Shown here: one piece after another, positions 2,783 to 64,000 of the stretch
How positions within the stretch are numbered: position 1 is the first letter of the stretch
Layout: each line of letters opens with the position of its first letter
Assembly: GCA_021776785.1 (NCBI GenBank)
Contig: JAJFFF010000044.1
Coordinates: 282,230 to 346,229 of the forward strand
Direction: 5' to 3'
Length of the DNA: 64,000 nt
DNA from: Planctomycetota bacterium
GTDB lineage: Bacteria; Planctomycetota; PLA2
Program-made: the position numbers and the translations under genes
The notes under the pieces: generated by a model
Told to the model about the DNA's origin: nothing
Database searches by the model: none
Seen by the model: the letters and a program-made list of their open reading frames with translations, nothing else

Positions 2783-3763
2783 CTACAGCGTGACGACGTC
2801 TTTGGCCCAATCGCGGTTTTCTTCGTACCACGTGGCCAAGTTGTCGAGCCCTTCATGCAGATATGTCCGCGGCTCCCAACCGAGAATCGAACGCGCCTTG
2901 TCGATGCACGCCCAACTGGCAGGCACGTCTTCGGCAAACGTCGGCTCGAACTTCAGATTCGCTTCCAACCCAGTCTTCTTTTCCATGTGGCGCACCACCT
3001 CCATCAGTCCGAACGGCTTGTCCGAACCGAGGTTGATGATTTCGTAGCCCACCGGCTTGATCGCGGCGATCGTGCCGCGCGCGATGTCATCCACGTACGT
3101 GAAGTCGCGCGACTGCGTTCCGTCGCCGTAGATCACGACGGGGCGGCCCTCGTAGATCCACTGCGTGAACCGGAACAGACTCATGTCCGGTCGCCCCGCG
3201 GGGCCAAACACGGTGAAGTAGCGCAGCACCGACACGTCGATGCCGTACAGATGGTGATACGTAAACGCCATCGACTCCGCGCCCTTCTTGGACGCGGCGT
3301 AAGACGACAGCGCGCGGTCGGTGTTCATGTCCTCGCGCGACGGCTGCGGATTGTTCTTGCCGTACAAGCTCGATGTCGAGGCGAGTAAGAACTTGTTGAC
3401 CTTGAAGTCTTTGCAGAGCTCCAGCAGATTCAACGTGCCCGTCGTGTTCGTGTCGACATACACCCACGGATCGAGGCGCGCCTGCCGCACGCCGGCGCGA
3501 GCCGCGAGATTGATGACGGCGTCAAACTTGCCTTCGTGCCTCTTCCAAACGTCGAGCAGGGCCGGTCGATCGCAGATGTCGATCCGGTTGATCTCGAAGT
3601 TGTCGCGAGGCTCCAGCCGGGCGAGCCGCCAGTCCTTGAGGCGAATGTCATACGCATCGTTCATGCAGTCGACGCCGACCACGGTGTGGCCCGCATCGAG
3701 GAGCTGTTCGCTCACCTTGCTTGCGATGAATCCTGCTGTTCCGGTAACCAGGTACTTGGCCAT
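2783..3763 (-). CDS. NAD-dependent sugar epimerase/dehydratase (UDP-glucuronate 4-epimerase-like)
   Basis: MAKYLVTGTAGFIASKVSEQLL (GxxGxxG Rossmann motif) and the YxxxK region of the SDR-extended family. The track ORF starts upstream at 3952, but ATG at 3763 gives the canonical N-terminus. Confidence 0.8.
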   Translation of the reverse strand: MAKYLVTGTAGFIASKVSEQLLDAGHTVVGVDCMNDAYDIRLKDWRLARLEPRDNFEINRIDICDRPALLDVWKRHEGKFDAVINLAARAGVRQARLDPWVYVDTNTTGTLNLLELCKDFKVNKFLLASTSSLYGKNNPQPSREDMNTDRALSSYAASKKGAESMAFTYHHLYGIDVSVLRYFTVFGPAGRPDMSLFRFTQWIYEGRPVVIYGDGTQSRDFTYVDDIARGTIAAIKPVGYEIINLGSDKPFGLMEVVRHMEKKTGLEANLKFEPTFAEDVPASWACIDKARSILGWEPRTYLHEGLDNLATWYEENRDWAKDVVTL

Positions 3764-3896
3764 GGGGCCGATACTCCGTCTCTTCCCGCCTAACTGGTGG
3801 CGGGCTCCTTTACTTAAGTCGATCCGCGGCAGCGGTTTCCGCAGGGCCCACCCCGGAAAAATCCCTGTTTTCGCGGTTTTTGAGCCCCAAATCGCC

Positions 3897-4222
3897 GCCC
3901 AACCCCAAGAAAAAGCCAAACCCAACCCCAACCGCCCCCCGAACGGGACCACTTCTCCCTTCTCGCCGCCCTAAGCTGTTTTGTGATCGGGTTTTATGGC
4001 GTCGGCCTGCGGGATTTTTCGCGCAAAATGGAGCGCAGGCGGTGGGTCGATGTTGGCCCCGATGCCCTCGTTTCCGCCTTCTTGCGGGGTTTTGCGGCTG
4101 AATCGGGGCCCGCGCAGCCAAGAGCGCGGCCTCATTTTGCGCGAAAAATCCCGCACGACGACGACACAAACCCCCACATACCATAAGGTTACGAGCGTCG
4201 TGAGCGAGAAGTGGTCCCGCTA
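3897..4222. repeat. Copy A of a ~300-bp nested inverted-repeat element (MITE-like). It is inverted relative to copy B.
   Basis: Outer IR cgggaccacttctc (3945-3958) pairs with gagaagtggtcccg (4206-4219). Inner IR cgggatttttcgcgcaaaatg (4010-4030) pairs with cattttgcgcgaaaaatcccg (4133-4153). A flanking aaaaagccaaacccaacc stretch is shared with copy B. The site is intergenic. Confidence 0.5.
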
Positions 4223-4260
4223 TGGTGGTCGCTTGGGGTTCTTGGCGTCGTTGGTCTCGT

Positions 4261-6492
4261 CTAGTTTGCGACGAGTAGCGCTTCGAGCGCGGGGACGAGC
4301 GAACCTTCGGCCGGCAGCGCGCCCTCGTCCAAGAACACAAGCTGCTGCGATTCGCGCGCGCCAGGTTCTTGCGCGACAGGAATCCCGCGCGTCAACGAGA
4401 GGTCCGACATCGCGTGGGTCAGCGCCGACTCGGGTGCCCCGATGTGCGCAACCGGGACGCCAAGTTCTTTCGCCGCCAAGGCGCATGCCGCTCCGGCGCG
4501 GGAGCTCCCCACGACCACAACGGACGGTGTGTGCGTCGTCGCGAGCGAGTGATAGCGCTCCATCACGTGGGCCATGCGAACGATGTTCGAGGTGGCCGCG
4601 ACGTCGAGATCGACGACCGGGAGTTCGTAGCCGCGACTCACGATTTCGGCGTCGGTCAGTCCGAGGTCGTCGCGCCGTCCGACGTGAACCACAACCGGCT
4701 CCAGCGTCGCGCGCTCCCGAGTCTCGCGGACGAGCGAGGACACAGCCGCAAGCTGAGCTTCGCCGTCAACAATGAAGTGAACGCGCGGGAGCGCGGGGTT
4801 CGCCGGAGACAACGTAGGTAGCGGCCGCGTGTCCGGGGTTGCGCTCTCGGCCGCAACCGAACGCATCGCGCCGACGCGCGCCGTCGCCAAGCGGAGTAGG
4901 TCGCACAACACGTTGCGTTTTTCTTCCGCGACAACAGGGTCCTCGTCGGTGAACGAAGCGCTCCAAGAAGCCGTAGCGTTGCCGCAGTCGACATGCTCCT
5001 CCACCTGGAGGCGGCCGGGTTGCGGCCGCTCGACGCGGATCCCGGCCAGACGGATCGCGGAGAGATCGAGATCTTGGGCGACGTGCTCCATCACCGACGA
5101 AACCTGATCGGTGTGATCGGCGAGCCGCAGCGAATCCGTCGCGTAACGGCGCACAAGATGGATCCGACGAAAGCTCTTGCGGTTGAGCAAGTGGCTCTTC
5201 CACGGGTATCCGCTGCGCGCGATCAAGAGCCCCACAACGACCAGCCCCATGGCGCCGACGACCGCGAGGCCAAACAAGTTCGGCCAAATCACAACGGCCG
5301 CAGCTTGGCTGGCGGCGAGCGCGATCAGCGCGCGCAGCGCGGCCCCGTCACTGCCGAGCTGGTGGCGCAACAAGTGATGGATGTGGCCACGGTCCGCGCT
5401 AAAGATCGGCTTGCCGCACGACCAGCGACGCACAGTCGAGCACAAGACGTCACCAAGCGGCACGGCGAGCAAGCCAAGCGCCAACGGCACGTTGACGGCG
5501 GCGCTGCTGCTCTGCAGCATGAACGCACCCAAGTAAAAACCAATGGTGAGGCTGCCGGTGTCGCCGAGAAAAATCCCGGCCCGTGGCAGGTTGTAGCGCA
5601 GGAAACCGAACAGCGCGCCGGCGAGCACGAACGGCGTGAGGCCGCCCAGCCCCATCGCCGTCGCCGCGGCCGCCGCAATCAACGCGAGCGAGGCGGCGAG
5701 TCCATCCATTCCGTCGATCAGGTTGACCGCGTTCGTCACGATCACAACCCAGAGCGGAACCAGGATCCATTCAAGCGATCCGATCTGGAACGTGCCGAGG
5801 GGTGCTAGTTCCAACATCGGCGTGCGGATGCCGCCCACGACCAAGAACACGCCGGCAAGCAGTTGCGCCAAGATCTTGGAGCGCGGAGAGACGCCGAACA
5901 CGTCGTCGAACGCGCCGACCATGGCCATCAACGCGCCGCCCGCGAGTAGCGCGGACGCGCCGGGGGCCGGGTCGAGCGCGAGATACGCCGCCATCGGTGC
6001 GAACACCGCGAGCCCGCCTAGAAGCGGCGTCGGGGCGGTGTGAATCGCACGTCCGCCGGGCAACACCGTTGCGGACACGCGATGCGCGAAACGAGATACA
6101 AACGGCACCGCGCACCACGTCGAAATGAGTCCAAAGAGGAACCAAAACGCGCTCGTCGAACCGAAACGAAGCAACACCACGCCGGCCACTAGGAGTGCCG
6201 CGATGCCCATGAGAACAACGCGGGACACACGGCTAGCCTCGAGGGATTGGTGTGTGCGTCGGATCATTTGTACGCCCGTATCGGGTTTTGACCATCCGCC
6301 TAAGTCCAGGCGAGGATGTGACCGCTCTTTCGCGGCCCTTGCTTGAGTTCGGCTGAGGCTCGGAAAATCCGTAGTCATGCGGTAACCGCTACGGACCGAG
6401 AAAAACGCGATCATCGCAAGGCCTACTGGTCTGTCTGGAATCGGCCGTCGCACCGAAGGCAAGCCGAATCGCCGCCGGACGAACGCCGGCAA
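4261..6492 (-). CDS. WecA/MraY-family (GT4) polyprenyl-phosphate HexNAc-1-phosphate transferase fused to a C-terminal domain resembling the N-terminal half of UDP-GlcNAc 2-epimerase
   Basis: Multi-TM N-terminal half carries NLIDGMDGLAASLALIAA and GDTGSLTIGFYLGA (MraY/WecA signatures). The C-terminal ~250 aa (VVHVGRRDD...TPSVVVVGSSRAGAACALAAKELGVPVAHIGA) aligns to the WecB N-domain (VTAQHREM...PDVVLVHGDTTTTLA...IPVGHVEAG) but has lost the HVEAG motif. The alternative start at 6267 (MIRRTHQ) is more likely than 6492. Confidence 0.75.
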   Translation of the reverse strand: MPAFVRRRFGLPSVRRPIPDRPVGLAMIAFFSVRSGYRMTTDFPSLSRTQARAAKERSHPRLDLGGWSKPDTGVQMIRRTHQSLEASRVSRVVLMGIAALLVAGVVLLRFGSTSAFWFLFGLISTWCAVPFVSRFAHRVSATVLPGGRAIHTAPTPLLGGLAVFAPMAAYLALDPAPGASALLAGGALMAMVGAFDDVFGVSPRSKILAQLLAGVFLVVGGIRTPMLELAPLGTFQIGSLEWILVPLWVVIVTNAVNLIDGMDGLAASLALIAAAAATAMGLGGLTPFVLAGALFGFLRYNLPRAGIFLGDTGSLTIGFYLGAFMLQSSSAAVNVPLALGLLAVPLGDVLCSTVRRWSCGKPIFSADRGHIHHLLRHQLGSDGAALRALIALAASQAAAVVIWPNLFGLAVVGAMGLVVVGLLIARSGYPWKSHLLNRKSFRRIHLVRRYATDSLRLADHTDQVSSVMEHVAQDLDLSAIRLAGIRVERPQPGRLQVEEHVDCGNATASWSASFTDEDPVVAEEKRNVLCDLLRLATARVGAMRSVAAESATPDTRPLPTLSPANPALPRVHFIVDGEAQLAAVSSLVRETRERATLEPVVVHVGRRDDLGLTDAEIVSRGYELPVVDLDVAATSNIVRMAHVMERYHSLATTHTPSVVVVGSSRAGAACALAAKELGVPVAHIGAPESALTHAMSDLSLTRGIPVAQEPGARESQQLVFLDEGALPAEGSLVPALEALLVAN

Positions 6493-27410: not shown

Positions 27411-30203
27411 ATGAACGACCCGGCTTCTTCTCCTGATGCGCTGCTCGCGCACACCGAATTCGTGCGCGCGCTCGCACGGCGGCTCCTCCGCGACGAGCAC
27501 GGCGCGGAGGACGTCACACAGCAAACGATGCTGGCCGCGCTCGAGTCGCCGCCGCGGGATCACACGAAGTGGCGACCGTGGCTCAGTCGCGTCACCCGCA
27601 ACTTCGCGTTTCGCTCCCGGCGGGATGCGACACGTCGGCGGCGGTGGGAGACGGCCGGTGCAAAACCGATTGATATTCCGTCGCCCCAAGACATCCGCGA
27701 TCGCGAAGCGGCGCGGCGCGACGTCGTCGAGGCGGTGCTGCAGTTGGCAGAGCCGTATCGAACCACCATCATCTTGCGATATTTGGAAGAGTTGCCGCCG
27801 CGGGATGTCGCACGGCGGATGAACGCACCTGTCGAAACGGTGCGTACGCGCACGCGCCGCGCGGTCGAACAACTGCGCAACACGCTGGAACAAGAACCGA
27901 CGCGGGATTGGCGAGCGGGGCTCGCGCTTCTGGCGACGCCCAAAGCATGGGGAGCGATTGCGATGTCCGCAAAATCGAAGTGGATCGGTGCTGCAGTGGG
28001 AGCGCTTTTGCTTGCGCTCATTCCGGTTTGGATGGCCTATCGGCACCAGCCTGGAAGCGGTGACCGCGCCGAACGTACGACGGCCGAGCGGGCCACGCCC
28101 CTCGACACGTCAACGACCGCCCCGCCAACGTCGACATCGGCGTCGACGGACGTGGCCACCGGCATCGAAGGCGTCGTCCGCGGGCCGAGCGGCCCGATCG
28201 CGGACGCGTTCGTGGTGCTTGTGGACGGCGGCGACAAGGTCGCGCGACGACGTACGACCGCGACCGGCCGCTTCGCGTTTAAGCAAACGGGAACGTTTGA
28301 CGTCATCGCCGCGCATCCCGACTACCAGCCCGGTGCCGCGACCGTGACCGCGGAGGGCAAGAGCGCCACACGCGTCGACCTCGTTCTGAAGGCCAGCGAT
28401 CCCATCGCGTTCCGCGTGACCGACGGTTCGACCAAGAGAGTTCTCGACGACGTCGAAGTCTTGGTCATCGTCTCGGGCGACGCTACGAACGCGGCGCTCG
28501 AAACGCTGCTCGCCGAAGGCGGTTTGTGGAAACTGATCCCGCGGCTAAGTGTCTACGACTCGTTGATGGATGCGTTCGCTGGACTGCGCGGGAGCGGTGT
28601 CGTTTACATCCCGCCGATCAAGACGTCAAACGGCGTGGCGCACCTGCGCGGTCTTCTGCCGCGTGGCCGCTTCCAGGCCATCGTCAGCCGACACGGCTAC
28701 GCGCCGCTCCTGGTTACGCGCGACGCCATCGGGGATCAGCTGGACGTCACGCTGCAACCGCAGTCCACGCTGCGCGTCACCGCCCCCAACATCGACGGCC
28801 AACCGGCGGTGGGAGCGTGGTGCGAAGTCAACCGGCCCGGGTTGTTTCTGCCCATGCCGGTCAATCGCGCGCAGTTCGACGAAAACGGTCGCGTCGAGTT
28901 CGGCGAGCTCAGTGCCGGGCTGTATGAGGTCATCGTGTCGCGCGACGGCACGTGGGCGCTGGGCGCAAAGGCTCCCAACGCCGACAGTCAGGGCCGAGTC
29001 TCGGTCGGACGCAACGCGACCGCCATCCTTGCGCAGCGCCGCGTCGAGCTGGCCCCAAATCAAACCCACACAGTTCACTTCGGCGGCCCGGAAACCGGTC
29101 GGATCGTCGGCACGATCGCGGCCGGCGATGGCGGCGCGATGATCAACAAGGTGTGGCAAGTGCGGCTGCGACGAGATGACAACGACGTCGCGACAACCAA
29201 CGCCAAAGACGGAAAGTTCGTCTTCGAGAGCGTGGCGCCTGGTTCGTACCGTGTTGTCGCCACCGCATTGGCGAGCGGCGCGAGCGTGACGACCGACGTG
29301 GCGGTGCGTGCGGGGTCGGGCGATACCGTTGTCTCGTTGCGCGCCGAGTCCGGCGGCGTGCGCGGCTCGGTGCGAGGTCGCAACGGTCAACCGTTGCCGG
29401 GAGCGCGCATGCTGATTCTCCGCTATGACGTAGCCCGCACACTGGCACGTCAAGACCCGCGCGGAACCAACGAAGTGTTGTCGCTTCTCTCGCGTGGTTT
29501 TGAGAGCGATCGCAACGGTCGGTTTGAGCGGCCCATGACGGCGGGTCACTACGTCGTTTTTGCGGCAAACGACGGATCCGCGGATTTTCGCGAGGTGCAC
29601 ATCAAAGCAAACGCGCAGACCGAGGTCGCGCTCGATCTGAGTCCGGCCCGTGTCTTCCCGGTCGCGCTCGAGCTCGTTGATCGGGACAAACCCGTCGCGG
29701 GCCACATCTTTCTCCGCGGTTATCTCGGTGGATTCGTGCTCGCGTTTCTCCTGGACGAGGACGCCATGGCTCCCGACGCCAAGCCGATCACCGCGCGGCG
29801 CTATCGACTGCCGAAGGGGCGCTACTTGCTCAACGTTATGGCGCCCGGCCGCGCGCCGATCCTCCAACTTCCGATTCACACGACCGGCGCGTACTCGCTT
29901 CGCATACCCGTCGCCCGCGGCGTGTCGGCAACGCTCACGCTGACCGAAAACGACGCGCCCTTGCGCCACGTCGACCTCGCCCTGCAAACGGCGCTGGGAA
30001 CGACCGTCCATCGCGCGGGCCACCCCGCCGCGCTGTTCGCGCGCAGCCACGGCTGGCGTACCGACAACGCCGGTACGCTTGTGATCCCTTGCCTGCTGCC
30101 CGGCCGCTACGTGCTTCTCCGCCAGGACCGAAAGATCGCATCATTTCGCGTCACCGACGAGCCCCTGACGACTCGGATCGCCCTGGCCGCTCCGCCACGC
30201 TAG
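27411..30203 (+). CDS. ECF (sigma-70 group IV) sigma factor fused in-frame to a transmembrane anti-sigma-like segment and a ~700-aa extracytoplasmic region with CarboxypepD_reg-like beta-sandwich repeats
   Basis: N-terminal 170 aa: EDVTQQTMLAAL (region 2) and RYLEELPPRDVARRMNAPVETVRTRTRRAVEQLR (region 4 HTH). Then the TM helix WIGAAVGALLLALIPVWMAY. Then IEGVVRGPSGPIADAFVVLVDG...GRFAF and further repeats. A single uninterrupted 930-aa ORF. Confidence 0.7.
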   Translation: MNDPASSPDALLAHTEFVRALARRLLRDEHGAEDVTQQTMLAALESPPRDHTKWRPWLSRVTRNFAFRSRRDATRRRRWETAGAKPIDIPSPQDIRDREAARRDVVEAVLQLAEPYRTTIILRYLEELPPRDVARRMNAPVETVRTRTRRAVEQLRNTLEQEPTRDWRAGLALLATPKAWGAIAMSAKSKWIGAAVGALLLALIPVWMAYRHQPGSGDRAERTTAERATPLDTSTTAPPTSTSASTDVATGIEGVVRGPSGPIADAFVVLVDGGDKVARRRTTATGRFAFKQTGTFDVIAAHPDYQPGAATVTAEGKSATRVDLVLKASDPIAFRVTDGSTKRVLDDVEVLVIVSGDATNAALETLLAEGGLWKLIPRLSVYDSLMDAFAGLRGSGVVYIPPIKTSNGVAHLRGLLPRGRFQAIVSRHGYAPLLVTRDAIGDQLDVTLQPQSTLRVTAPNIDGQPAVGAWCEVNRPGLFLPMPVNRAQFDENGRVEFGELSAGLYEVIVSRDGTWALGAKAPNADSQGRVSVGRNATAILAQRRVELAPNQTHTVHFGGPETGRIVGTIAAGDGGAMINKVWQVRLRRDDNDVATTNAKDGKFVFESVAPGSYRVVATALASGASVTTDVAVRAGSGDTVVSLRAESGGVRGSVRGRNGQPLPGARMLILRYDVARTLARQDPRGTNEVLSLLSRGFESDRNGRFERPMTAGHYVVFAANDGSADFREVHIKANAQTEVALDLSPARVFPVALELVDRDKPVAGHIFLRGYLGGFVLAFLLDEDAMAPDAKPITARRYRLPKGRYLLNVMAPGRAPILQLPIHTTGAYSLRIPVARGVSATLTLTENDAPLRHVDLALQTALGTTVHRAGHPAALFARSHGWRTDNAGTLVIPCLLPGRYVLLRQDRKIASFRVTDEPLTTRIALAAPPR

Positions 30204-52976: not shown

Positions 52977-53465
52977 TCAGGATACGGCCGATTGTGCCCA
53001 CGTCTTCTCGAACTCGAATTCGCGTGTGTCCGACAGGTCGTGCAGTTCGCGGGTCCGCCCCGTCGCTTCGTAGCCCGTGCGCCGATAGACCTCGTGCGCC
53101 GTCACAAAACGTGTGTCGGACCACAACACGATGCGCGTGGCGCCGACGGCGCGCGCGTGATCTTCGACGAGTGTGATGAGCCGGCGCCCCAGACCCTGCC
53201 TCCGGGCACTCTCGTGGACGTACAGCTTCTTGAGTTCGACGGTCGGCGCGCGCGCGGTGCATTCGGTGCACCCGATGCACCCCACGATCTCGCTATCTTG
53301 GTCCTCGGCCACCCAAAAAAACGGAAATCTCGAGGCGGGGGCGCGCAGCTCCGGTTCCTCGCGATCCACATCCAGCAAGACGCCCGGATACTCGGCGAAT
53401 ACCGAACCGATCAGCGCGATCACGCCGGCTGAGTCTTCGTCGCGGGCGGTGCGAATAGATGCCAT
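52977..53465 (-). CDS. GNAT-family N-acetyltransferase
   Basis: IRTARDEDSAGV...LKKLYVHESARRQGLGRRLITLVEDHARAVGATRIVL (acetyl-CoA binding R/Q-x-x-G-x-G/A). Confidence 0.7.
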   Translation of the reverse strand: MASIRTARDEDSAGVIALIGSVFAEYPGVLLDVDREEPELRAPASRFPFFWVAEDQDSEIVGCIGCTECTARAPTVELKKLYVHESARRQGLGRRLITLVEDHARAVGATRIVLWSDTRFVTAHEVYRRTGYEATGRTRELHDLSDTREFEFEKTWAQSAVS

Positions 53466-53539
53466 TTTCGAGAGTTCGTAAGGGGCGCGAACGTATTGCG
53501 GAATCGAAACCGCGACCCCGGTTGGGTAGTCTAATTTCC

Positions 53540-54529
53540 ATGGTAACGCTTGCGCAACTCGCCGACATGTTTGGTGGGGAAGTCCAAGGCGACGGCTCCA
53601 CAGAAATCACCCGCATTACTTCGCTGGAATCGGGCGGCGAAGGAGACATCGCCCCCGCGGGCGAAGAGCGCTTCCGACGCGCGGCCAAGGTCACGAACGC
53701 GGCCGCGCTGCTGGTCTCACCCGAGCTCGCTGAAGTGAACGACGCGCCAAAGATTGTCCACCGCTATCCGTTGGTCGCGGCGAACGGCATCATCGAGCAC
53801 TTCGGTCTCATCGAGCCGCGCCGCCCGGCGGCGATTCATCCGACCGCCATCATCGACGCGACGGCGACCGTCGGCCCGGACTGCCGCATCGGCCCCTTCG
53901 TCGTGATCGAAGCCGGCGCCGTCATCGGAGCGCGCTGCGAGATTCAAGCGCACGTCACCATCGAGCGCGGCGTGATCTTAGGCGACGACTGCCGCATTGA
54001 GCCGGGTGCTGTCTTGCATTGCGGGTTGCAGGCGGGCCATCAGGTCGTCGTCGGCGCCAACAGCGTCATCTCCCGGCAAGGCTTTGGGTACGGACAGGGC
54101 CCCACGCATCTCGTCCGGCTCCACCACATCGGCAGAGTCGTATTGGAGGACGGCGTCGAGATCGGCGCGCTCACCGCCGTGGACCGCGCGCGCTATGACG
54201 TCACCCGCATCGGAACACGGTCCGGGTTCGACAATCTCTGCCAGATCGCGCACAACTCGGTCGTCGGGAAACACTCATTCGGCGCAGCGCAGGTCGGCCT
54301 GGCCGGCCGCAGCGTGATCGGCGACTTCTGCCAACTCGGTGGGCAGTCCGCTGTCGCGCTCGGCGCAACATTGGGCGACCACAGCAAGCTCGGCGCACAA
54401 GCGGGATTGATCAAGAGCGCGAAACCGCATTCCGATCTCTGGGGCACGCCCGCCCAGAGCAAGTTGAAATATCTACGCCAGCTCGCGACGGGCCGAAAAC
54501 TCACGCGCAAGCAGTACGAAAACAAATAG
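53540..54529 (+). CDS. lpxD: UDP-3-O-acylglucosamine N-acyltransferase LpxD
   Basis: N-terminal LAQLADMFGGEVQGDG...ITRITSLESGGEGDIA (LpxD N-domain), followed by left-handed beta-helix hexapeptide repeats (IHPTAIIDATATVGPDCRIGPFVVIEAGAVIGARCEI...) and a C-terminal helix. Confidence 0.85.
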   Translation: MVTLAQLADMFGGEVQGDGSTEITRITSLESGGEGDIAPAGEERFRRAAKVTNAAALLVSPELAEVNDAPKIVHRYPLVAANGIIEHFGLIEPRRPAAIHPTAIIDATATVGPDCRIGPFVVIEAGAVIGARCEIQAHVTIERGVILGDDCRIEPGAVLHCGLQAGHQVVVGANSVISRQGFGYGQGPTHLVRLHHIGRVVLEDGVEIGALTAVDRARYDVTRIGTRSGFDNLCQIAHNSVVGKHSFGAAQVGLAGRSVIGDFCQLGGQSAVALGATLGDHSKLGAQAGLIKSAKPHSDLWGTPAQSKLKYLRQLATGRKLTRKQYENK

Positions 54530-54569
54530 CGCCCGCGCGAACCGAAGTTCGACGCGGGCCTTGTGTTTG

Positions 54570-54672
54570 TTGTTCACGGCTGACGCCGTCTGTGTTTTTG
54601 GTTCCACGGCTGACGCCGTCGGAGACTCTGACGCCCGTTTGGTGCTTTGCTCCAATGCGGCGTCAGCCGCCA
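54570..54672. terminator. Direct-repeat/inverted-repeat structure between convergent genes, a putative bidirectional terminator
   Basis: cacggctgacgccgtc occurs twice (54575-54590 and 54605-54620), and its complement ggcgtcagccg occurs at 54660-54670, so alternative long hairpins are possible. It lies between the lpxD stop and the stop of the minus-strand lipoprotein gene. Confidence 0.4.
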
Positions 54673-54682
54673 AGAACTTCGC

Positions 54683-56296
54683 TTAGCGACCGCGACGCGC
54701 TCGTCCCGCCTCGTCAACCTCTTTGACGAGGTTCGTCATCGCCTTGGCGTCAAGCCGGAACCCGATGCGCAGGGCCCGTCCGTTCCGGGTTCCGAAGATC
54801 ATGCCCGGGACAGCATCGCCATCTTTCACGGTCGGCGCTTTCTTGTCGCCGCGCGCGCGCGCGAACTCGGTCGCGCCCTTTAAGAAACCGCGCGCTTCAA
54901 GGTGCACCAAGAATCCGAGCGTGCCTTTCGCCTCGCTCAACGCGTGCGCAAAGTGCTGACTCGGTTCTGCGCCCTTGACGAGTTCCTTAATGGGACCGAC
55001 GCCGTCGCTGCTCATGACGATCGACAGCCGACCGTTCCCACCCGCAGCCGTCAGATTGACTCCGTTCGGGAAGAGACGCTCCAGCGAACGCTCGGACTGC
55101 TTGAGTTCTTCGCTAAACGTAAGCTGGCCCGGATAGGCCGTGGCGCCACCAACGTCCATCTTGTCGCCCGGCGCGTAGGTCACACCCGCCTTAGTCAGGC
55201 TACCGAAGACTTCGCTGTACTGCTTCGCCACGTCGCCGGCGTCCGTCGCACGCGCGGCCACGGCAAGGTGGAGCCCACTGGACGCGACGTTCACACTCGC
55301 CCCCCAGTCGTGGCCCATGTTCTTCGCGAACTTCATCAACTTCTTGTTCACTTCGTCCATCACGCGGGCCTGTTCGGGAGACATCTGCTTTTGCGCGAGC
55401 GCCGAAGCGGCTTCCGAGTACTGCGCAAGCGCTTGGGCGTCCATCTTGAACAAGATTGCAAGCGGTGTGTTGGCACCGAGATGCTTGGCCATCTCGCGCA
55501 AGTTCGTTTCGCCGCCGGGCATCTCGGCGATCTTGCTGCCGGGTTTGGCCGTGTAGATCATGTCGGCGGACAACATCGGACTAGCGTCATGCGCCACAAT
55601 GTCTAAGTACTCGGCGCTCAGGATGAAGTCGCGAATGTACCCAAACGCGCCCTTCGCCGCGCTCGTGGCATCCACGCCCGGCGCCATCTTCCCAAGGTTG
55701 CCACCCACCATCATCTCGCCCAAGCCCAACACGCCGTCGATGTCGGAACGGAACAACTCGACGGCGGCCCCGAGATCCACGCGAATCACGACGTCGCCGG
55801 CGGGCATACCGGACACGAGCTTGCTCGATCCGGCCGCGTAGTTCGGATCCTGCGAAAGGGCGACGTAGCTCCCGCCGACCTCTTTCGACTTAAACATCGG
55901 GTGCGCGCTCTTGGCGACGGCCGCCGGATCCGCAACGGGCAAGATGACGGTGGCAACGGGGCGCGGCATGCTCCCGATTTTTTCCAACCGGAACGCCACG
56001 GCGAGCGGACGGTTGGGATCGATGACCTTGGCGTCGATGCCGACTAACCCCATCCTCGACTTGTACTCGACGTCCTCTTGGAACATCGCGCCGATCAGGC
56101 CGGTGATGTTATCGATGTTTTGGATCGAACGGGCCAACACGACGATGTGCGTGTCGGCGGGGAGAAGCGATGCAAGATCGCTGTCGATGTTTTGCGTTCC
56201 AAACGCTTCGGCCAGCGCGGCCCAATCGCTGGGATCGTCCTGGCCACAGGCCACGACCAACGACAACAAACCAACTAAGAACCACTTTGCTCGCAT
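54683..56296 (-). CDS. Hypothetical secreted lipoprotein (537 aa)
   Basis: MRAKWFLVGLLSLVVACGQDD (lipobox VVAC). No recognisable catalytic motif. Confidence 0.5.
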   Translation of the reverse strand: MRAKWFLVGLLSLVVACGQDDPSDWAALAEAFGTQNIDSDLASLLPADTHIVVLARSIQNIDNITGLIGAMFQEDVEYKSRMGLVGIDAKVIDPNRPLAVAFRLEKIGSMPRPVATVILPVADPAAVAKSAHPMFKSKEVGGSYVALSQDPNYAAGSSKLVSGMPAGDVVIRVDLGAAVELFRSDIDGVLGLGEMMVGGNLGKMAPGVDATSAAKGAFGYIRDFILSAEYLDIVAHDASPMLSADMIYTAKPGSKIAEMPGGETNLREMAKHLGANTPLAILFKMDAQALAQYSEAASALAQKQMSPEQARVMDEVNKKLMKFAKNMGHDWGASVNVASSGLHLAVAARATDAGDVAKQYSEVFGSLTKAGVTYAPGDKMDVGGATAYPGQLTFSEELKQSERSLERLFPNGVNLTAAGGNGRLSIVMSSDGVGPIKELVKGAEPSQHFAHALSEAKGTLGFLVHLEARGFLKGATEFARARGDKKAPTVKDGDAVPGMIFGTRNGRALRIGFRLDAKAMTNLVKEVDEAGRARRGR

Positions 56297-61416: not shown

Positions 61417-63009
61417 ATGTCGCACGCCCGCAAGAGCAACTACGAGCTCTCCCATCACGGCTTGGCCAGTCTTGGCCAGGAGCACTGGAATCTCACGACC
61501 GCCGCCCTCTATGAGGAGGCGATTCGTCGTGGCGAGGCCAAGCTCGCTGCCGACGGCCCGCTTTTGGCGGTGACCGGGCAACACACGGGTCGCTCCCCGA
61601 ACGACAAGTTCACGACACGCGAGCCCGGCACGGAAAAAGACATCTGGTGGGGCGACGTCAACCGCCCGATCGAGCCGGCCCAGTTCGAAGCGATGTATCA
61701 AAAGATGATCGCTCACTACGCCGGCCGCGACTGCTTTGTGCAGGACTGTTATGCGGGCGCCGATGCCGACTATCGTCTGAAGGTCCGTGTCGTCACCGAG
61801 TGCGCGTGGCACAACTTGTTCGCCCGCAACATGTTCATTCAACCGGCGGACTCCGAGCTCTCTGACTTCGAGCCGCAGTTCACCGTCTTGCAGGCGCCTT
61901 CGCTCCTCGCGGACCCGGCGACCGACGGGACGAACTCCGGCACGTTTGTCTTGGTGAGTTTCGAGCGGCGCATGGTGCTCATCGGTGGCACGAGCTACGC
62001 CGGCGAAATCAAGAAGTCGATCTTCTCCGTGCTCAACTACATGTTGCCTGATCGCGGCGTGCTTCCGATGCACTGCTCCGCCAACATTGGCAAGGACGGC
62101 GATTCCGCTCTTTTCTTTGGACTCTCTGGAACCGGCAAGACGACGCTCTCCGCGGATCCGCGCCGCGGCTTGATCGGCGACGATGAGCACGGCTGGAGCG
62201 ATAACGGCGTCTTCAACTTCGAGGGTGGCTGCTACGCCAAGGTGGTTCGCCTCGACCGGCAGGCCGAGCCCCAGATCTACGCGACGACGAAACGCTTCGG
62301 CACGATTCTTGAGAACGTCGTGATGGACGACGAGACCCACGCCATTAACTTAGACGACGCGCGCTTGACCGAAAACACGCGCGCTTCGTATCCGACCGAG
62401 TTCATCGACGGCGTGGTTTCCGACGCCATGGGCGGGCATCCGAATAACGTCTTTTTCCTGACGTGCGATGCGTTCGGCGTTTTGCCGCCGATTAGCCGCT
62501 TGTCGCCCGAGCAGGCGATGTACCACTTCCTTTCGGGTTACACCGCGAAGGTTGCGGGAACTGAGAAGGGCGTCACGGAGCCCACCGCGACATTTAGCGC
62601 GTGCTTTGGCGCGCCGTTTCTCCCGCGTTTCCCCGGCGTGTATGCGCAGATGCTCGGCGAGCGAATTCGCAACCACAACGCGAAGTGCTGGCTCGTCAAC
62701 ACGGGCTGGACGGGCGGCGCCCACGGCGCTGGCTCGCGCATGAAGATCGCCCACACGCGCGCCACACTCGACGCCGTGTTGAGCGGCGAACTCAACGGCG
62801 TCACTTTCGAGAAGGATCCGATTTTCGGTCTCGCCATTCCGGCGGAGTGTCCTGGCGTCCCCGCCGACGTCCTACGTCCGAACCTAACCTGGTCCGACCA
62901 GGGTGCTTACAACGCCCAAGCGAAAAAGCTGGCGCAGCTGTTCAAAGACAACTTCAAGCAGTTCGCCGACGAAACCGGCCCCGAAATCGAAGCAGCCGGC
63001 CCCCGCTAA
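61417..63009 (+). CDS. pckA: Phosphoenolpyruvate carboxykinase (ATP)
   Basis: [22 protein letters not shown] (kinase-1a P-loop), GDDEHGW and [15 protein letters not shown] are conserved PckA blocks. 530 aa. Confidence 0.9.
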
Positions 63010-63100
63010 AAGCGCCCCAAAACCGCCAACGGCCGCGCCACAAGGCCCCCGTTCCAGGCCCCCCGAACGCCCCGCCCACACGGGATCCACACGCGGCCCA

Positions 63101-63440
63101 CACGGGACCACTTCTCATTGTAAAACGCTGTAACTTGTTTTGGATGCTTGTGTTGTGGTGATCGTCTGCGGGATTTTTCGCGCAAAACGACGCCGCGCCG
63201 CTATCTCACCCAGATCTGCGAAGCAGCCCTAGTCGCGCTCCGATCGCCCCCTACGTGCCGTCTGTTGCGGTTTCGGCGCACGGCGCGGCATGGCAGGCAC
63301 CCTGTCATTGTGCGCGGAAAATCCCGCAGCCGAATGACATAACCCAATAAAAATAAACAGCTTACAGCGCCCACGAGGGAGAAGTGGTCCCGTTCTAAGT
63401 CCCGTTCCAATCGGTTGGTTGGCTTTTTTTTGGGGGGGAG
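63101..63440. repeat. Copy B of the nested inverted-repeat (MITE-like) element
   Basis: Outer IR cgggaccacttctc (63103-63116) pairs with gagaagtggtcccg (63379-63392). Inner IR gcgggatttttcgcgcaaaacg (63168-63189) pairs with ttgtgcgcggaaaatcccgc (63308-63327). Flanking ggttggttggctttttttt is the complement of the aaaaagccaaacccaacc flank of copy A. It lies between convergent pckA and MFS genes. Confidence 0.5.
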
Positions 63441-63463
63441 GGGGCGTTTGCGGTCTTTTGGGC

Positions 63464-64000
63464 TTAGCCGGGGTTGGTTTTTTTGAGTTTTTGAATCGTT
63501 GCAAGGCCGCAAAGGAAGAGCGCGACCGAAACGCCAAACGCCGCGCGGTACGTGAACGCGTCTCTCACCCAAAGGCCCAAGTGTGGCGCGAACGCGCTCC
63601 GGATACCGACCATGGAGAAGTGAATCGCGGCATACATGTGCGCGCGCCCGTCGGGGGCAAAGTGCAAAGGCCCCAAGTTCCAGCCGTAGTGCACACCCGC
63701 CATCGACAACCCGAACAAGCAGTAGAGAAGAAGAAACGCCGCAAACGTCGTGACGAAACCCATCGCGGTGAAAAACAGTGCGAGCAGGAGAAACGCGATC
63801 GATGTGATGCGGACCACGCCGAGGCGATGCGCGAATCGACCGAGGAGCGCCGAACCGATCACCTGCGCAATCGGAAACGCGATCGACAGGGCGGATGTGT
63901 ACTGGCTCCAAGAGAGCTTGAGCTCGTCTTCCGCAAAGAGCGCGAGCAACCCAATGCTGCACAGGAACGCGATGCCGTAGAGCATGAAGCCAAGCTCGTA
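63464..64000 (-). CDS. MFS transporter, C-terminal half (the gene continues beyond the window end)
   Basis: Six hydrophobic helices (…LGRFAHRLGVVRITSIAFLLLALFFTAMGF…). The track Met at 63985 is internal, and there is no upstream stop before the window edge. Confidence 0.55.
   Translation of the reverse strand, partial: YELGFMLYGIAFLCSIGLLALFAEDELKLSWSQYTSALSIAFPIAQVIGSALLGRFAHRLGVVRITSIAFLLLALFFTAMGFVTTFAAFLLLYCLFGLSMAGVHYGWNLGPLHFAPDGRAHMYAAIHFSMVGIRSAFAPHLGLWVRDAFTYRAAFGVSVALFLCGLATIQKLKKTNPG

What the first reader, a model, noticed from the sequence alone, without database searches (positions are those of the whole stretch)
3897..4222. Two copies of a ~300-bp element with nested terminal inverted repeats (MITE-like), one at each end of the window
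Copy A (about 3897-4222) and copy B (about 63101-63440) share four features. There is an outer 14-17-bp inverted repeat (gagaagtggtcccg(ttc)) and an inner ~20-bp inverted repeat (gcgggatttttcgcgcaaaa / ttttgcgcgaaaaatcccgc). Both have a C-rich flank (aaaaagccaa(a)cc(c)aacc...) on one side only, which shows that B is inverted relative to A. The central ~100 bp differ between copies. Neither copy encodes a plausible protein. One sits in a promoter-side intergenic region between the epimerase and the WecA-like gene, the other between convergent pckA and MFS genes. Conserved nested termini, a variable core and a non-coding location fit a miniature inverted-repeat transposable element or a REP-like structured repeat. 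It could also be a conserved structured RNA.
Basis: seen in the sequence. Interest (0 to 1): 0.65.

Follow-up and report, generated by a model that had tools for sequence, protein, structure and literature searches.

The report
Two-copy palindromic intergenic repeat element
Two diverged copies of a roughly 380-450 bp non-coding, hairpin-forming DNA element fill the gaps just after gene ends in an uncultured Planctomycetota genome; one copy is missing from the same site in related species, so it is most likely a small non-autonomous mobile element, which is an ordinary kind of thing, though this family matched nothing in any library searched.

Summary
The outer 14-mer GAGAAGTGGTCCCG occurs four times and the inner 20-mer GCGGGATTTTTCGCGCAAAA four times (one copy has 2 mismatches). 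All lie in the two elements, where chance predicts about 0. New findings:
- Each copy is one giant imperfect palindrome that fills the whole intergenic gap (A about 3881-4260, B 63010-63463).
- The two boxes are exactly 51 nt apart in all four arms, although the spacers are only 34-60% identical.
- The 106/120-nt centres are unrelated.
- B is inverted relative to A.
- Copy A is absent from the orthologous site in two relatives (131-133 nt there, 497 nt here), so it is an insertion that starts right after a stop codon.

There is no target-site duplication, Rfam match, strand preference, compensatory pairing, transposase in the window, or third copy in about 80 kb. The public scans that were allowed found only chance matches.

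Best reading (about 0.5): a MITE-like or foldback non-autonomous element whose boxes are protein-recognition sites. Genome-wide copy number and the mobilising enzyme remain unknown. It is a new member of a known kind, of modest interest.

The parts
3881..4260 (+). Copy A, all the DNA that is extra relative to the empty orthologous site. One long imperfect palindrome, paired from about 3899 to 4255.
   Evidence: The gap between the glycosyltransferase (Glycos_transf_4, WecA-like) gene and the epimerase gene is 497 nt here, against 131 nt (L058) and 133 nt (L059). The conserved epimerase leader aligns up to window 3880. Fold.
3885..3943 (+). Copy A, L tail (C-rich; contains AAAAAGCCAAACCCAACC).
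   Evidence: Similar to the reverse complement of B 63393-63463 (z 3.7). Absent from the empty site.
3941..3960 (+). Copy A, L-type Box 1: GAACGGGACCACTTCTCCCT (14-nt core at 3944-3957).
   Evidence: The 20-mer is identical to the reverse complement of 63376-63395.
3958..4008 (+). Copy A, L spacer, exactly 51 nt.
   Evidence: Coordinates. It is 60% identical to B's L spacer.
4007..4030 (+). Copy A, Box 2 (left): CTGCGGGATTTTTCGCGCAAAATG.
4031..4132 (.). Copy A, centre (106 nt between the 20-mer cores). Unrelated to the centre of B.
   Evidence: Shuffle test z -0.4 and 1.6.
4133..4156 (-). Copy A, Box 2 (right, inverted).
4155..4205 (-). Copy A, R spacer, exactly 51 nt.
4206..4219 (-). Copy A, R-type Box 1 (14-nt core only).
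4220..4260 (+). Copy A, R tail (G-rich on the + strand). It abuts the stop codon of the WecA-like gene at 4261-4263.
   Evidence: (I2, I3).
63010..63463 (-). Copy B, inverted relative to A. The whole gap between the pckA stop (63009) and the MFS transporter gene stop (63464) is one long imperfect palindrome, paired 63005-63468.
63010..63102 (-). Copy B, R tail. It carries an extra partial Box 1 repeat (63067-63085 and 63089-63107, 22 nt apart).
   Evidence: D1.
63103..63116 (+). Copy B, R-type Box 1 core.
63117..63167 (+). Copy B, R spacer, exactly 51 nt.
63168..63187 (+). Copy B, Box 2 (R side), exact 20-mer.
63188..63307 (.). Copy B, centre (120 nt). Unrelated to the centre of A.
63308..63327 (-). 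Copy B, Box 2 (L side), 2 mismatches.
63328..63378 (-). Copy B, L spacer, exactly 51 nt.
63376..63395 (-). Copy B, L-type Box 1. The 20-mer is identical to that of copy A.
63393..63463 (-). Copy B, L tail (G-rich on the + strand). It contains GGTTGGTTGGCTTTTTTTT and a tandem GTCCCGTTCYAA repeat at 63387-63410.
   Evidence: (D2).

Best explanation
A and B are two old, diverged members of a family of non-autonomous palindromic (foldback or MITE-like) insertion elements in an uncultured Planctomycetota genome.

Each element has two inverted arms of about 87 nt. An arm consists of Box 1, then exactly 51 nt, then Box 2. Outside the arms are C-rich/G-rich tails, and between them is a centre that is free to vary.

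Shown:
- The element is inserted DNA at site A.
- It is non-coding.
- It fills the space directly after stop codons.
- Its boxes and their spacing are conserved while everything between them has decayed.

Inferred:
- The boxes are sequence-specific recognition sites for a protein encoded elsewhere in the genome, most simply the transposase that moved the element. That protein would contact both boxes at a fixed geometry.
- The L and R ends are distinguishable, like the left and right ends of a transposon.
- Once inserted, the element is read through as a 3' untranslated hairpin of the upstream gene, and it may be tolerated or useful there.
For: - Chance is excluded for both boxes.
- The orthologous gap in the two closest available relatives is 131 nt and 133 nt, against 497 nt here. 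The epimerase leader on one side and the end of the WecA-like coding sequence on the other are conserved. With the closer relative (epimerase 87% amino-acid identity) and the more distant one (74%) both empty, one gain is the parsimonious history.
- No gene is called on either copy, and an ORF read through copy A has no homologues.
- Both copies fold into one long hairpin, with z scores from -6 to -9.
- The boxes are invariant (14 of 14 positions in four arms; 20 of 20 in three arms and 18 of 20 in the fourth). The spacers are only 34-60% identical, yet exactly 51 nt long in all four arms.
- The L and R arms are consistently different in both copies, including a 20-mer L-type Box 1 that is identical between copies.
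- Extra ACGGGAY half-sites flank Box 1 on both sides of copy B.
- The positions match where REP and MITE families are reported: between unidirectional and convergent genes, downstream of coding regions (PMC3733652).
Against: - No target-site duplication is visible at the site A junctions or next to Box 1.
- Only two copies occur in the window plus about 16 kb of flanks.
- There is no transposase, integrase or tyrosine transposase in the window.
- At 64% identity, neither copy is a recent transposition product. The short-read assembly (Logan contigs) runs through both copies without a break. On my understanding that these are built at k=31 (not verified here), that argues against near-identical copies elsewhere (inference).
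- Exact-pattern scans of 185,579 species genomes, JGI metagenomes and IMG/VR found only single chance matches, never a pair. It is unknown whether this genome is in the genome collection.
- Perfect box conservation in old, immobile copies is not what neutral decay of a dead MITE predicts.
Confidence: 0.5

Rival explanations
1. The element is a host-maintained 3'-end element. The long hairpin and its boxes would be kept because they do something for the cell. Candidates are ending or insulating transcription between neighbouring genes, protecting mRNA 3' ends, or binding a nucleoid or regulatory protein, as REP/BIME elements do in enterobacteria. The two copies would then share ancestry through an old dispersal or duplication but persist through selection. 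This overlaps with the best explanation rather than excluding it.
For: - Boxes and spacing are perfectly kept while the spacers decayed.
- Both copies start at a stop codon. In both, the R end faces the gene that reads into the element, and the L tail carries GGTTGG..GGCTTTTT on that transcript strand.
- Relatives carry unrelated long hairpins at the same pckA 3' position: L057 z -8.4 and L054 z -2.95.
Against: - The T-run lies 25-35 nt beyond the base of the Box 1 stem. Only B gives a weak terminator-like hit, and A gives none.
- L056 has no hairpin at that site (z 0.8).
- The closest relatives manage without the element at site A.
- Arms within one copy pair no better than chimeric pairs of arms from different copies (26 and 28 versus 26 and 24 of 51), so the stem itself is not being maintained.
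Confidence: 0.25
2. The pair is a duplicated cis-regulatory DNA module. Box 1 and Box 2 would be operator sites for DNA-binding regulators, arranged as inverted pairs. The two loci (a polysaccharide-export gene cluster and pckA) would be co-regulated, with no mobility involved.
For: - Sequence-specific conservation of short boxes at a fixed spacing.
- Only two copies were seen.
- Copy A lies upstream of the epimerase gene.
Against: - Copy B lies between two convergent 3' ends, where there is no promoter to regulate.
- The conserved epimerase leader and likely promoter are present in relatives without the element.
- Homologous tails and spacers show that a whole unit of about 380 nt was copied, not just the binding sites.
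- No sigma-70-like promoter is found in either region.
Confidence: 0.1
3. Each copy is a gene for a long-hairpin non-coding RNA, or holds a small RNA in the better-conserved L half.
For: - Strong predicted folding.
- The L half (tail, Box 1, spacer and Box 2) is better conserved than the R half.
Against: - No Rfam match, even at E-value 5.
- Neither strand folds consistently better: A is -154 on the + strand and -161 on the - strand, B is -153 on the - strand and -147 on the + strand.
- RNAalifold pairs with changes on both sides are few and lie outside the invariant boxes.
- Pairing within a copy is no better than in chimeras.
- No promoter-like site.
- The centres are unrelated.
Confidence: 0.07

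Closest known systems
MITEs with long inverted arms and variable cores, such as the Correia elements of Neisseria and the ERIC/IRU elements of enterobacteria. This comparison rests on my own knowledge of those families; none of their sequences was compared here.
   Same: Small (under 500 bp) and non-coding. The whole length is an imperfect palindrome. It lies in intergenic DNA next to gene ends, is present or absent between related species, and would be co-transcribed with neighbouring genes.
   Different: No target-site duplication (Correia elements duplicate TA). Two separate invariant boxes at a fixed 51-nt spacing, rather than one continuous terminal repeat. The copies are far more diverged (64% identity) than typical family members. 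Copy number is unknown and no parent IS has been identified.
REPINs and REP doublets mobilised by RAYT tyrosine transposases, and the 'TIR repeat' families that flank TIRYT genes (PMC3733652, PMC3116915).
   Same: Two inverted conserved units around a spacer fold into a larger hairpin. There is no target-site duplication. The location is between unidirectional and convergent genes, downstream of coding regions. Planctomycetes such as R. baltica are reported to hold many tyrosine transposase genes with flanking repeats.
   Different: REPs are 20-40 bp units that are themselves palindromic and carry a GTAG or CGTC tag. Box 1 and Box 2 are not self-complementary, and the unit here is about 87 nt per arm. 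No RAYT or TIRYT gene is in the window.
Transposon ends with several subterminal transposase-binding sites, such as Tn7-like and Mu ends. This is a lead from my own knowledge and was not tested.
   Same: Distinct left and right ends, with more than one conserved site per end at a fixed spacing. Copy B has extra half-sites outside Box 1.
   Different: Those are the ends of large autonomous elements. No such element, and no TGT...ACA termini, are seen here.

Membership tests
MITE (non-autonomous derivative of a DDE transposon) | Terminal inverted repeats | tested here: met
   The 14-nt Box 1 pair is 100% complementary in both copies, and weaker pairing continues into the tails.
MITE (non-autonomous derivative of a DDE transposon) | Small size and no coding capacity | tested here: met
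   About 380 nt and 454 nt. No gene is called on either copy. An ORF read through copy A gives one low-complexity hit among 1.84 billion proteins. The A/B alignment has frame-breaking indels.
MITE (non-autonomous derivative of a DDE transposon) | Target-site duplication flanking the element | tested here: not met
   No direct repeat is present at the site A junctions defined against the empty site in L058, or next to Box 1 in either copy. The junctions are known only to within about 10 nt, so a 2-3 bp duplication could be hidden.
MITE (non-autonomous derivative of a DDE transposon) | Presence/absence at orthologous sites (evidence of insertion) | tested here: met
   Site A is empty in L058 (87% epimerase identity) and in L059/L060 (74%). 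At site B, the first 62 nt after pckA in the 82% relative are unrelated, and the contig then ends; this is inconclusive.
MITE (non-autonomous derivative of a DDE transposon) | Multiple copies per genome | tested here: inconclusive
   Two copies in 64 kb plus about 16 kb of flanks. The rest of the 427-kb contig and of the genome could not be reached.
MITE (non-autonomous derivative of a DDE transposon) | A full-length IS with the same ends | tested here: inconclusive
   There is none in the window: the boxes occur only in A and B, and no transposase domain is present. ISfinder and the rest of the genome were not available.
REP / REPIN (mobilised by RAYT) | The unit is a 20-40 bp sequence that is itself palindromic, with a GTAG or CGTC tag | tested here: not met
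   Neither Box 1 (CGGGACCACTTCTC) nor Box 2 (GCGGGATTTTTCGCGCAAAA) is self-complementary, by inspection. CGTC occurs near Box 2 in 3 of 4 arms but at varying distance.
REP / REPIN (mobilised by RAYT) | Inverted doublet that folds into a larger hairpin; extragenic, downstream of genes | tested here: met
   for the fold; for location.
REP / REPIN (mobilised by RAYT) | A RAYT gene flanked by the repeat | not testable with these tools
   None is in the window. The rest of the genome is out of reach.
Curated structured RNA family (Rfam 15) | Match to a covariance model | tested here: not met
   No gathering-score hit in the window. The best permissive hits have E-values of 0.3 and 2.1, far below the gathering scores.
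Conserved structured RNA (uncurated) | Compensatory changes that preserve pairing | tested here: not met
   The boxes never vary. In the spacers, pairing within a copy (26 and 28 of 51) equals pairing in chimeras (26 and 24 of 51). Only two sequences are available, so power is low.
Intrinsic (rho-independent) terminator | GC-rich stem immediately followed by a T-run | tested here: inconclusive
   There is one weak site in the tail of B (63407-63422 plus T8), at a frequency no higher than in shuffled sequence. There is none in the matching position of A.

The most novel reading that the evidence does not exclude
The arm of about 87 nt (Box 1, exactly 51 nt, Box 2) could be a fixed-geometry landing pad for a still unknown, lineage-specific protein. 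That protein could be a transposase family not yet linked to such ends, or a host factor that has domesticated the hairpin as a 3'-end or insulator element. On this reading the boxes are under selection in place, which would explain why they are perfect in two copies whose spacers have decayed towards random sequence.
Probability: 0.15. Interest if true: 0.55.

Novelty: new member of a known kind. Interest (0 to 1): 0.3.

Why it matters
If confirmed as a family, this would add a repeat or MITE type for Planctomycetota, a phylum whose small mobile DNA is little described. It would also give a clean example in which two short boxes and their exact spacing survive while the rest of the element decays. 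That pattern points to a specific binding protein that could be looked for. In practice, such elements mark insertion hot spots at gene 3' ends, can confuse gene calling in GC-rich genomes, and are useful presence/absence markers between close lineages. It is not a surprising kind of object for a specialist.

Tried and rejected
- Chance: rejected.
- More copies in the window or flanks: blastn with word size 7, fuzzy box searches and an nhmmer arm profile found only A and B.
- Public collections: the inner 20-mer in GTDB species genomes gave 7 single hits in unrelated taxa. JGI metagenomes gave 20 single hits and IMG/VR gave 23 single hits. A Box 1-gap-Box 2 pattern in IMG/VR gave 0. No hit was paired with a second box, so all are read as chance.
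- The best extended hit, L016 (26 nt), lies in an enterobacterial ydgH-pntA intergenic region and stands alone, so it is judged chance.
- blastn against plasmids (copy A) and phages (copy B): nothing.
- Rfam at gathering and at permissive thresholds, and tRNA/tmRNA search: nothing.
- phmmer of the 176-aa ORF through copy A against 1.84 billion proteins, in the hope of spurious ORFs called on other copies: one low-complexity hit only.
- MFS transporter homologue search to reach site B in a close relative: the best hit is 55% identical, so it was of no use.
- The idea that the two inverted copies bound a 59-kb mobile island: rejected. Gene order around pckA is conserved in relatives across copy B, and the interior holds ordinary chromosomal genes with no transposase or integrase.
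- The partial resemblance in L056 downstream of pckA (GAGAAGTCGTCCGG and CTGCGGGATT): the box orientation is wrong and there is no BLAST or nhmmer support, so it was dropped.
- Literature search on the box sequences: only unrelated PCR primers.

Full report
**Observation**

Reading the two regions and searching the window confirms the nested inverted repeats.

- The outer 14-mer GAGAAGTGGTCCCG occurs exactly four times: 3944-3957(-), 4206-4219(+), 63103-63116(-) and 63379-63392(+). Nothing else matches in 64 kb even with two mismatches allowed. Shuffles give a mean of 0.46 matches and none reaches four.
- The inner 20-mer GCGGGATTTTTCGCGCAAAA occurs at 4009-4028(+), 4135-4154(-) and 63168-63187(+). 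A fourth copy at 63308-63327(-) has two mismatches. Shuffles give a mean of 0.02.
- A sensitive blastn of each copy against the window finds only the two copies and their own reverse complements. They align over about 380 nt at about 64% identity (E 8e-27).
- No further copy lies in the extra 7 kb to the left (L001) or 9 kb to the right (L052) of the window.

**Anatomy**

Aligning the four arms shows that each arm has the same plan.

- Each arm runs from a tail to Box 1, then a spacer, then Box 2. Box 1 is the invariant core CGGGACCACTTCTC. Box 2 is TGCGGGATTTTYCGCGCAMAA.
- The coordinates show that the spacer is exactly 51 nt in all four arms: 3958-4008, 4155-4205, 63117-63167 and 63328-63378. 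Spacer identity is nevertheless only 34-60%.
- The centres are 106 nt and 120 nt long and are not similar in either orientation (z -0.4 and 1.6).
- The arms are not equivalent. A's left spacer matches the reverse complement of B's right spacer (z 6.2-6.5). The same two arms share a 20-mer Box 1 (GAACGGGACCACTTCTCCCT) and a similar tail (z 3.7). The other pair of arms is only weakly alike (z 2.6).
On the + strand both copies are C-rich on the left and G-rich on the right, because the palindrome continues into the tails. Folding the complete intergenic regions gives a single giant hairpin, paired from 3899 to 4255 in A and from 63005 to 63468 in B.
- Copy B also has extra ACGGGAY half-sites outside Box 1 on both sides.

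**Organism and context**

- The best named pckA homologues are from Planctomycetota metagenome-assembled genomes, at 70-72% identity. The window's own proteins are on record from an NCBI contig of 426,998 bp and from an assembly of run SRR15505517, which is identical to the window apart from one base in each contig.
- Copy A lies between two tandem minus-strand genes. The inserted DNA starts directly after the stop of a Glycos_transf_4 (WecA-like) gene (4261-6228), and the 14-mer-bounded core begins 41 nt further on. The DNA ends about 118 nt upstream of the ATG (3763) of an NAD-dependent epimerase gene.
- Copy B fills the gap between the convergent stops of pckA (63009) and an MFS transporter gene (63464).
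- The rest of the window holds ordinary chromosomal genes. These include two-component system genes, an E1 dehydrogenase, RtcB, an ECF sigma fusion, a VWA protein and peptidases. There is no transposase, integrase or tyrosine transposase.
- The gene order ABC transporter, pckA, MFS, hypothetical protein, M1 peptidase is kept in relatives across copy B. The two inverted copies therefore do not bound a mobile island.

**Evidence of insertion**

- The closest available epimerase homologues are 87% identical (L058) and 74% identical (L059, L060). They sit in the same gene order, but the gap between the WecA-like gene and the epimerase gene is 131 nt and 133 nt, against 497 nt in the window.
- The last codons of the WecA-like gene and a leader of about 118 nt before the epimerase ATG align between the window and L058.
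- Between the stop codon and that leader, L058 has 11 nt where the window has about 380 nt (3881-4260).
- Both the nearer and the farther relative are empty, so a single gain in the window's lineage is the parsimonious history.
- I see no direct repeat at the junctions. They are defined only to within about 10 nt, so a very short duplication cannot be excluded.
- At site B the relatives are too distant to give an empty site. In the 82% relative, the 62 nt after pckA are unrelated and the contig then ends. The 70-73% relatives have an FKBP gene there.

**Tests of the RNA reading**

- Rfam gives nothing at gathering scores, and only sub-threshold noise at E-values up to 5. No tRNA or tmRNA is found.
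- Both strands of both copies fold about equally well, with no consistent preferred strand. A gives -154 on the + strand and -161 on the - strand. B gives -153 on the - strand and -147 on the + strand. The z scores run from -6 to -9.
- RNAalifold on the two copies predicts 82 pairs, but the long stems are the invariant boxes and so carry no covariation signal.
- A direct test was possible because the spacers are gapless. Pairing within a copy is 26 and 28 of 51 positions. Pairing in chimeras (A's left arm with B's right arm, and the reverse) is 26 and 24 of 51. Shuffled sequence gives 14.5 with a standard deviation of 3.2.
- The spacers therefore still carry inherited palindromy, but nothing shows that pairing is being maintained by compensatory change.
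- What is maintained is the sequence of the boxes and the distance between them. That pattern fits recognition by a protein better than a purely structural requirement.

**Search for relatives**

- Exact-pattern scans with the inner box gave 7 single hits in species-representative genomes, 20 in JGI metagenomes and 23 in IMG/VR. A Box 1-gap-Box 2 pattern gave none in IMG/VR.
- No hit has a second box, and none has Box 1. An nhmmer arm profile lifts only L016 above the rest. That hit is a lone 26-nt match in an enterobacterial ydgH-pntA spacer, which I regard as chance.
- Plasmid and phage collections give nothing.
- I could not tell whether this genome is part of the species-genome collection, so the absence of hits does not bound its copy number.
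- The short-read (Logan) contigs run through both copies without breaking. On my understanding that they are built at k=31 (own knowledge, not verified here), this suggests no near-identical copy exists elsewhere. It says nothing about diverged copies, whose shared blocks are shorter than the assembly k-mer (inference).

**Wider pattern**

Related genomes carry their own unrelated long intergenic palindromes built from short repeats. Some lie downstream of pckA: L057 has z -8.4, L054 has z -2.95, and L056 has none. Long hairpins at gene 3' ends thus seem common in this clade, with rapid sequence turnover. Published surveys place REP-type repeats in the same kind of position, between unidirectional and convergent genes and downstream of coding regions. 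They also note many tyrosine transposase genes with flanking repeats in the planctomycete R. baltica (PMC3733652).

**Interpretation**

- The best-supported reading (about 0.5) is a non-autonomous palindromic insertion element, MITE-like or foldback. Its two boxes per arm would be recognition sites for a protein encoded elsewhere, most simply its transposase.
- The insertion, the non-coding nature, the distinguishable ends and the box-and-spacing conservation are shown. The identity of the protein, the mechanism of movement and any role in the transcript are inferred.
- Several points hold it back: no target-site duplication, no known parent element, two old copies only, and boxes that look too well preserved for dead copies.
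- That last point keeps alive the overlapping rival (about 0.25) that the element is retained in place for a host function at gene 3' ends.
- A duplicated operator module (about 0.1) fits poorly with copy B lying between two 3' ends.
- A structured RNA gene (about 0.07) has no positive support.

**Family membership**

- It cannot be filed as a REP or REPIN, because the boxes are not self-palindromic units.
- It meets the MITE criteria of terminal repeats, size, lack of coding capacity and insertion polymorphism. It fails, or cannot yet be tested on, target-site duplication, copy number and a parent IS.

**Verdict**

It is most likely a new member of the known class of small palindromic intergenic mobile repeats. 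The one notable detail is the strict 51-nt spacing of two invariant boxes. Interest is modest (0.3).

Noticed in passing
window 3763-3880 (minus strand); L058 82-203; L059 about 3405-3523: A leader of about 118 nt upstream of the epimerase ATG is conserved across relatives at 74-87% protein identity. It contains CTGCGGAAaCCGC, GGaTCGACtTAnGTA and a hairpin GCCCGCC..GGCGGG before the ribosome-binding site. It is probably the epimerase promoter and 5' UTR. It gave no Rfam hit.
   Followed up: partly
L057 5772-5922, 11597-11710, 15342-15432, 19867-19998; L056 6394-6577, 15052-15160; L054 10960-11195: Related Planctomycetota genomes carry several long intergenic palindromes built from short repeats (CACAGAG.., GTCAGTT.., GACGTT..). 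They are unrelated in sequence to A and B. Within L057 they share motifs between loci, so they look like separate lineage-specific hairpin repeat families.
   Followed up: partly
window 54569-54677: The gap between the convergent genes 53459-54529(+) and 54683-56296(-) is another hairpin, with 20-nt arms at 85% complementarity. It contains two direct copies of CACGGCTGACGCCGTC and is unrelated to the boxes of A and B.
   Followed up: no
window 63010-63463, compared with L054 4115-5302, L055 4694-5881 and L057 11722-12867: Relatives have an FKBP-type peptidyl-prolyl isomerase gene between pckA and the MFS transporter gene. In the window that gene is missing and copy B occupies the gap.
   Followed up: no
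L016 2866-2891: A 26-nt identity to Box 2 plus its flanks lies in an enterobacterial ydgH-pntA intergenic region. It is a single occurrence with no partner box, so it is judged chance.
   Followed up: yes
L056 1-214: A perfect 101-nt inverted repeat (12-nt loop) sits at the very end of the locus (an NCBI contig from a metagenome-assembled genome). It is probably a fold-back assembly artefact.
   Followed up: no
window 27411-30203 (+): A 930-aa ORF has ECF sigma-factor regions 2 and 4 at the N-terminus, fused to CarboxypepD_reg and SdrD_B-like domains.
   Followed up: no
window 3899-3943 and 4220-4255; 63010-63102 and 63393-63463: The tails are runs of C on one strand and G on the other. Examples are GGGGGGCGGTTGGGGTTGGG and GGGGGGGAGGGGG. 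They could form G-quadruplex or i-motif structures; this was not tested.
   Followed up: no
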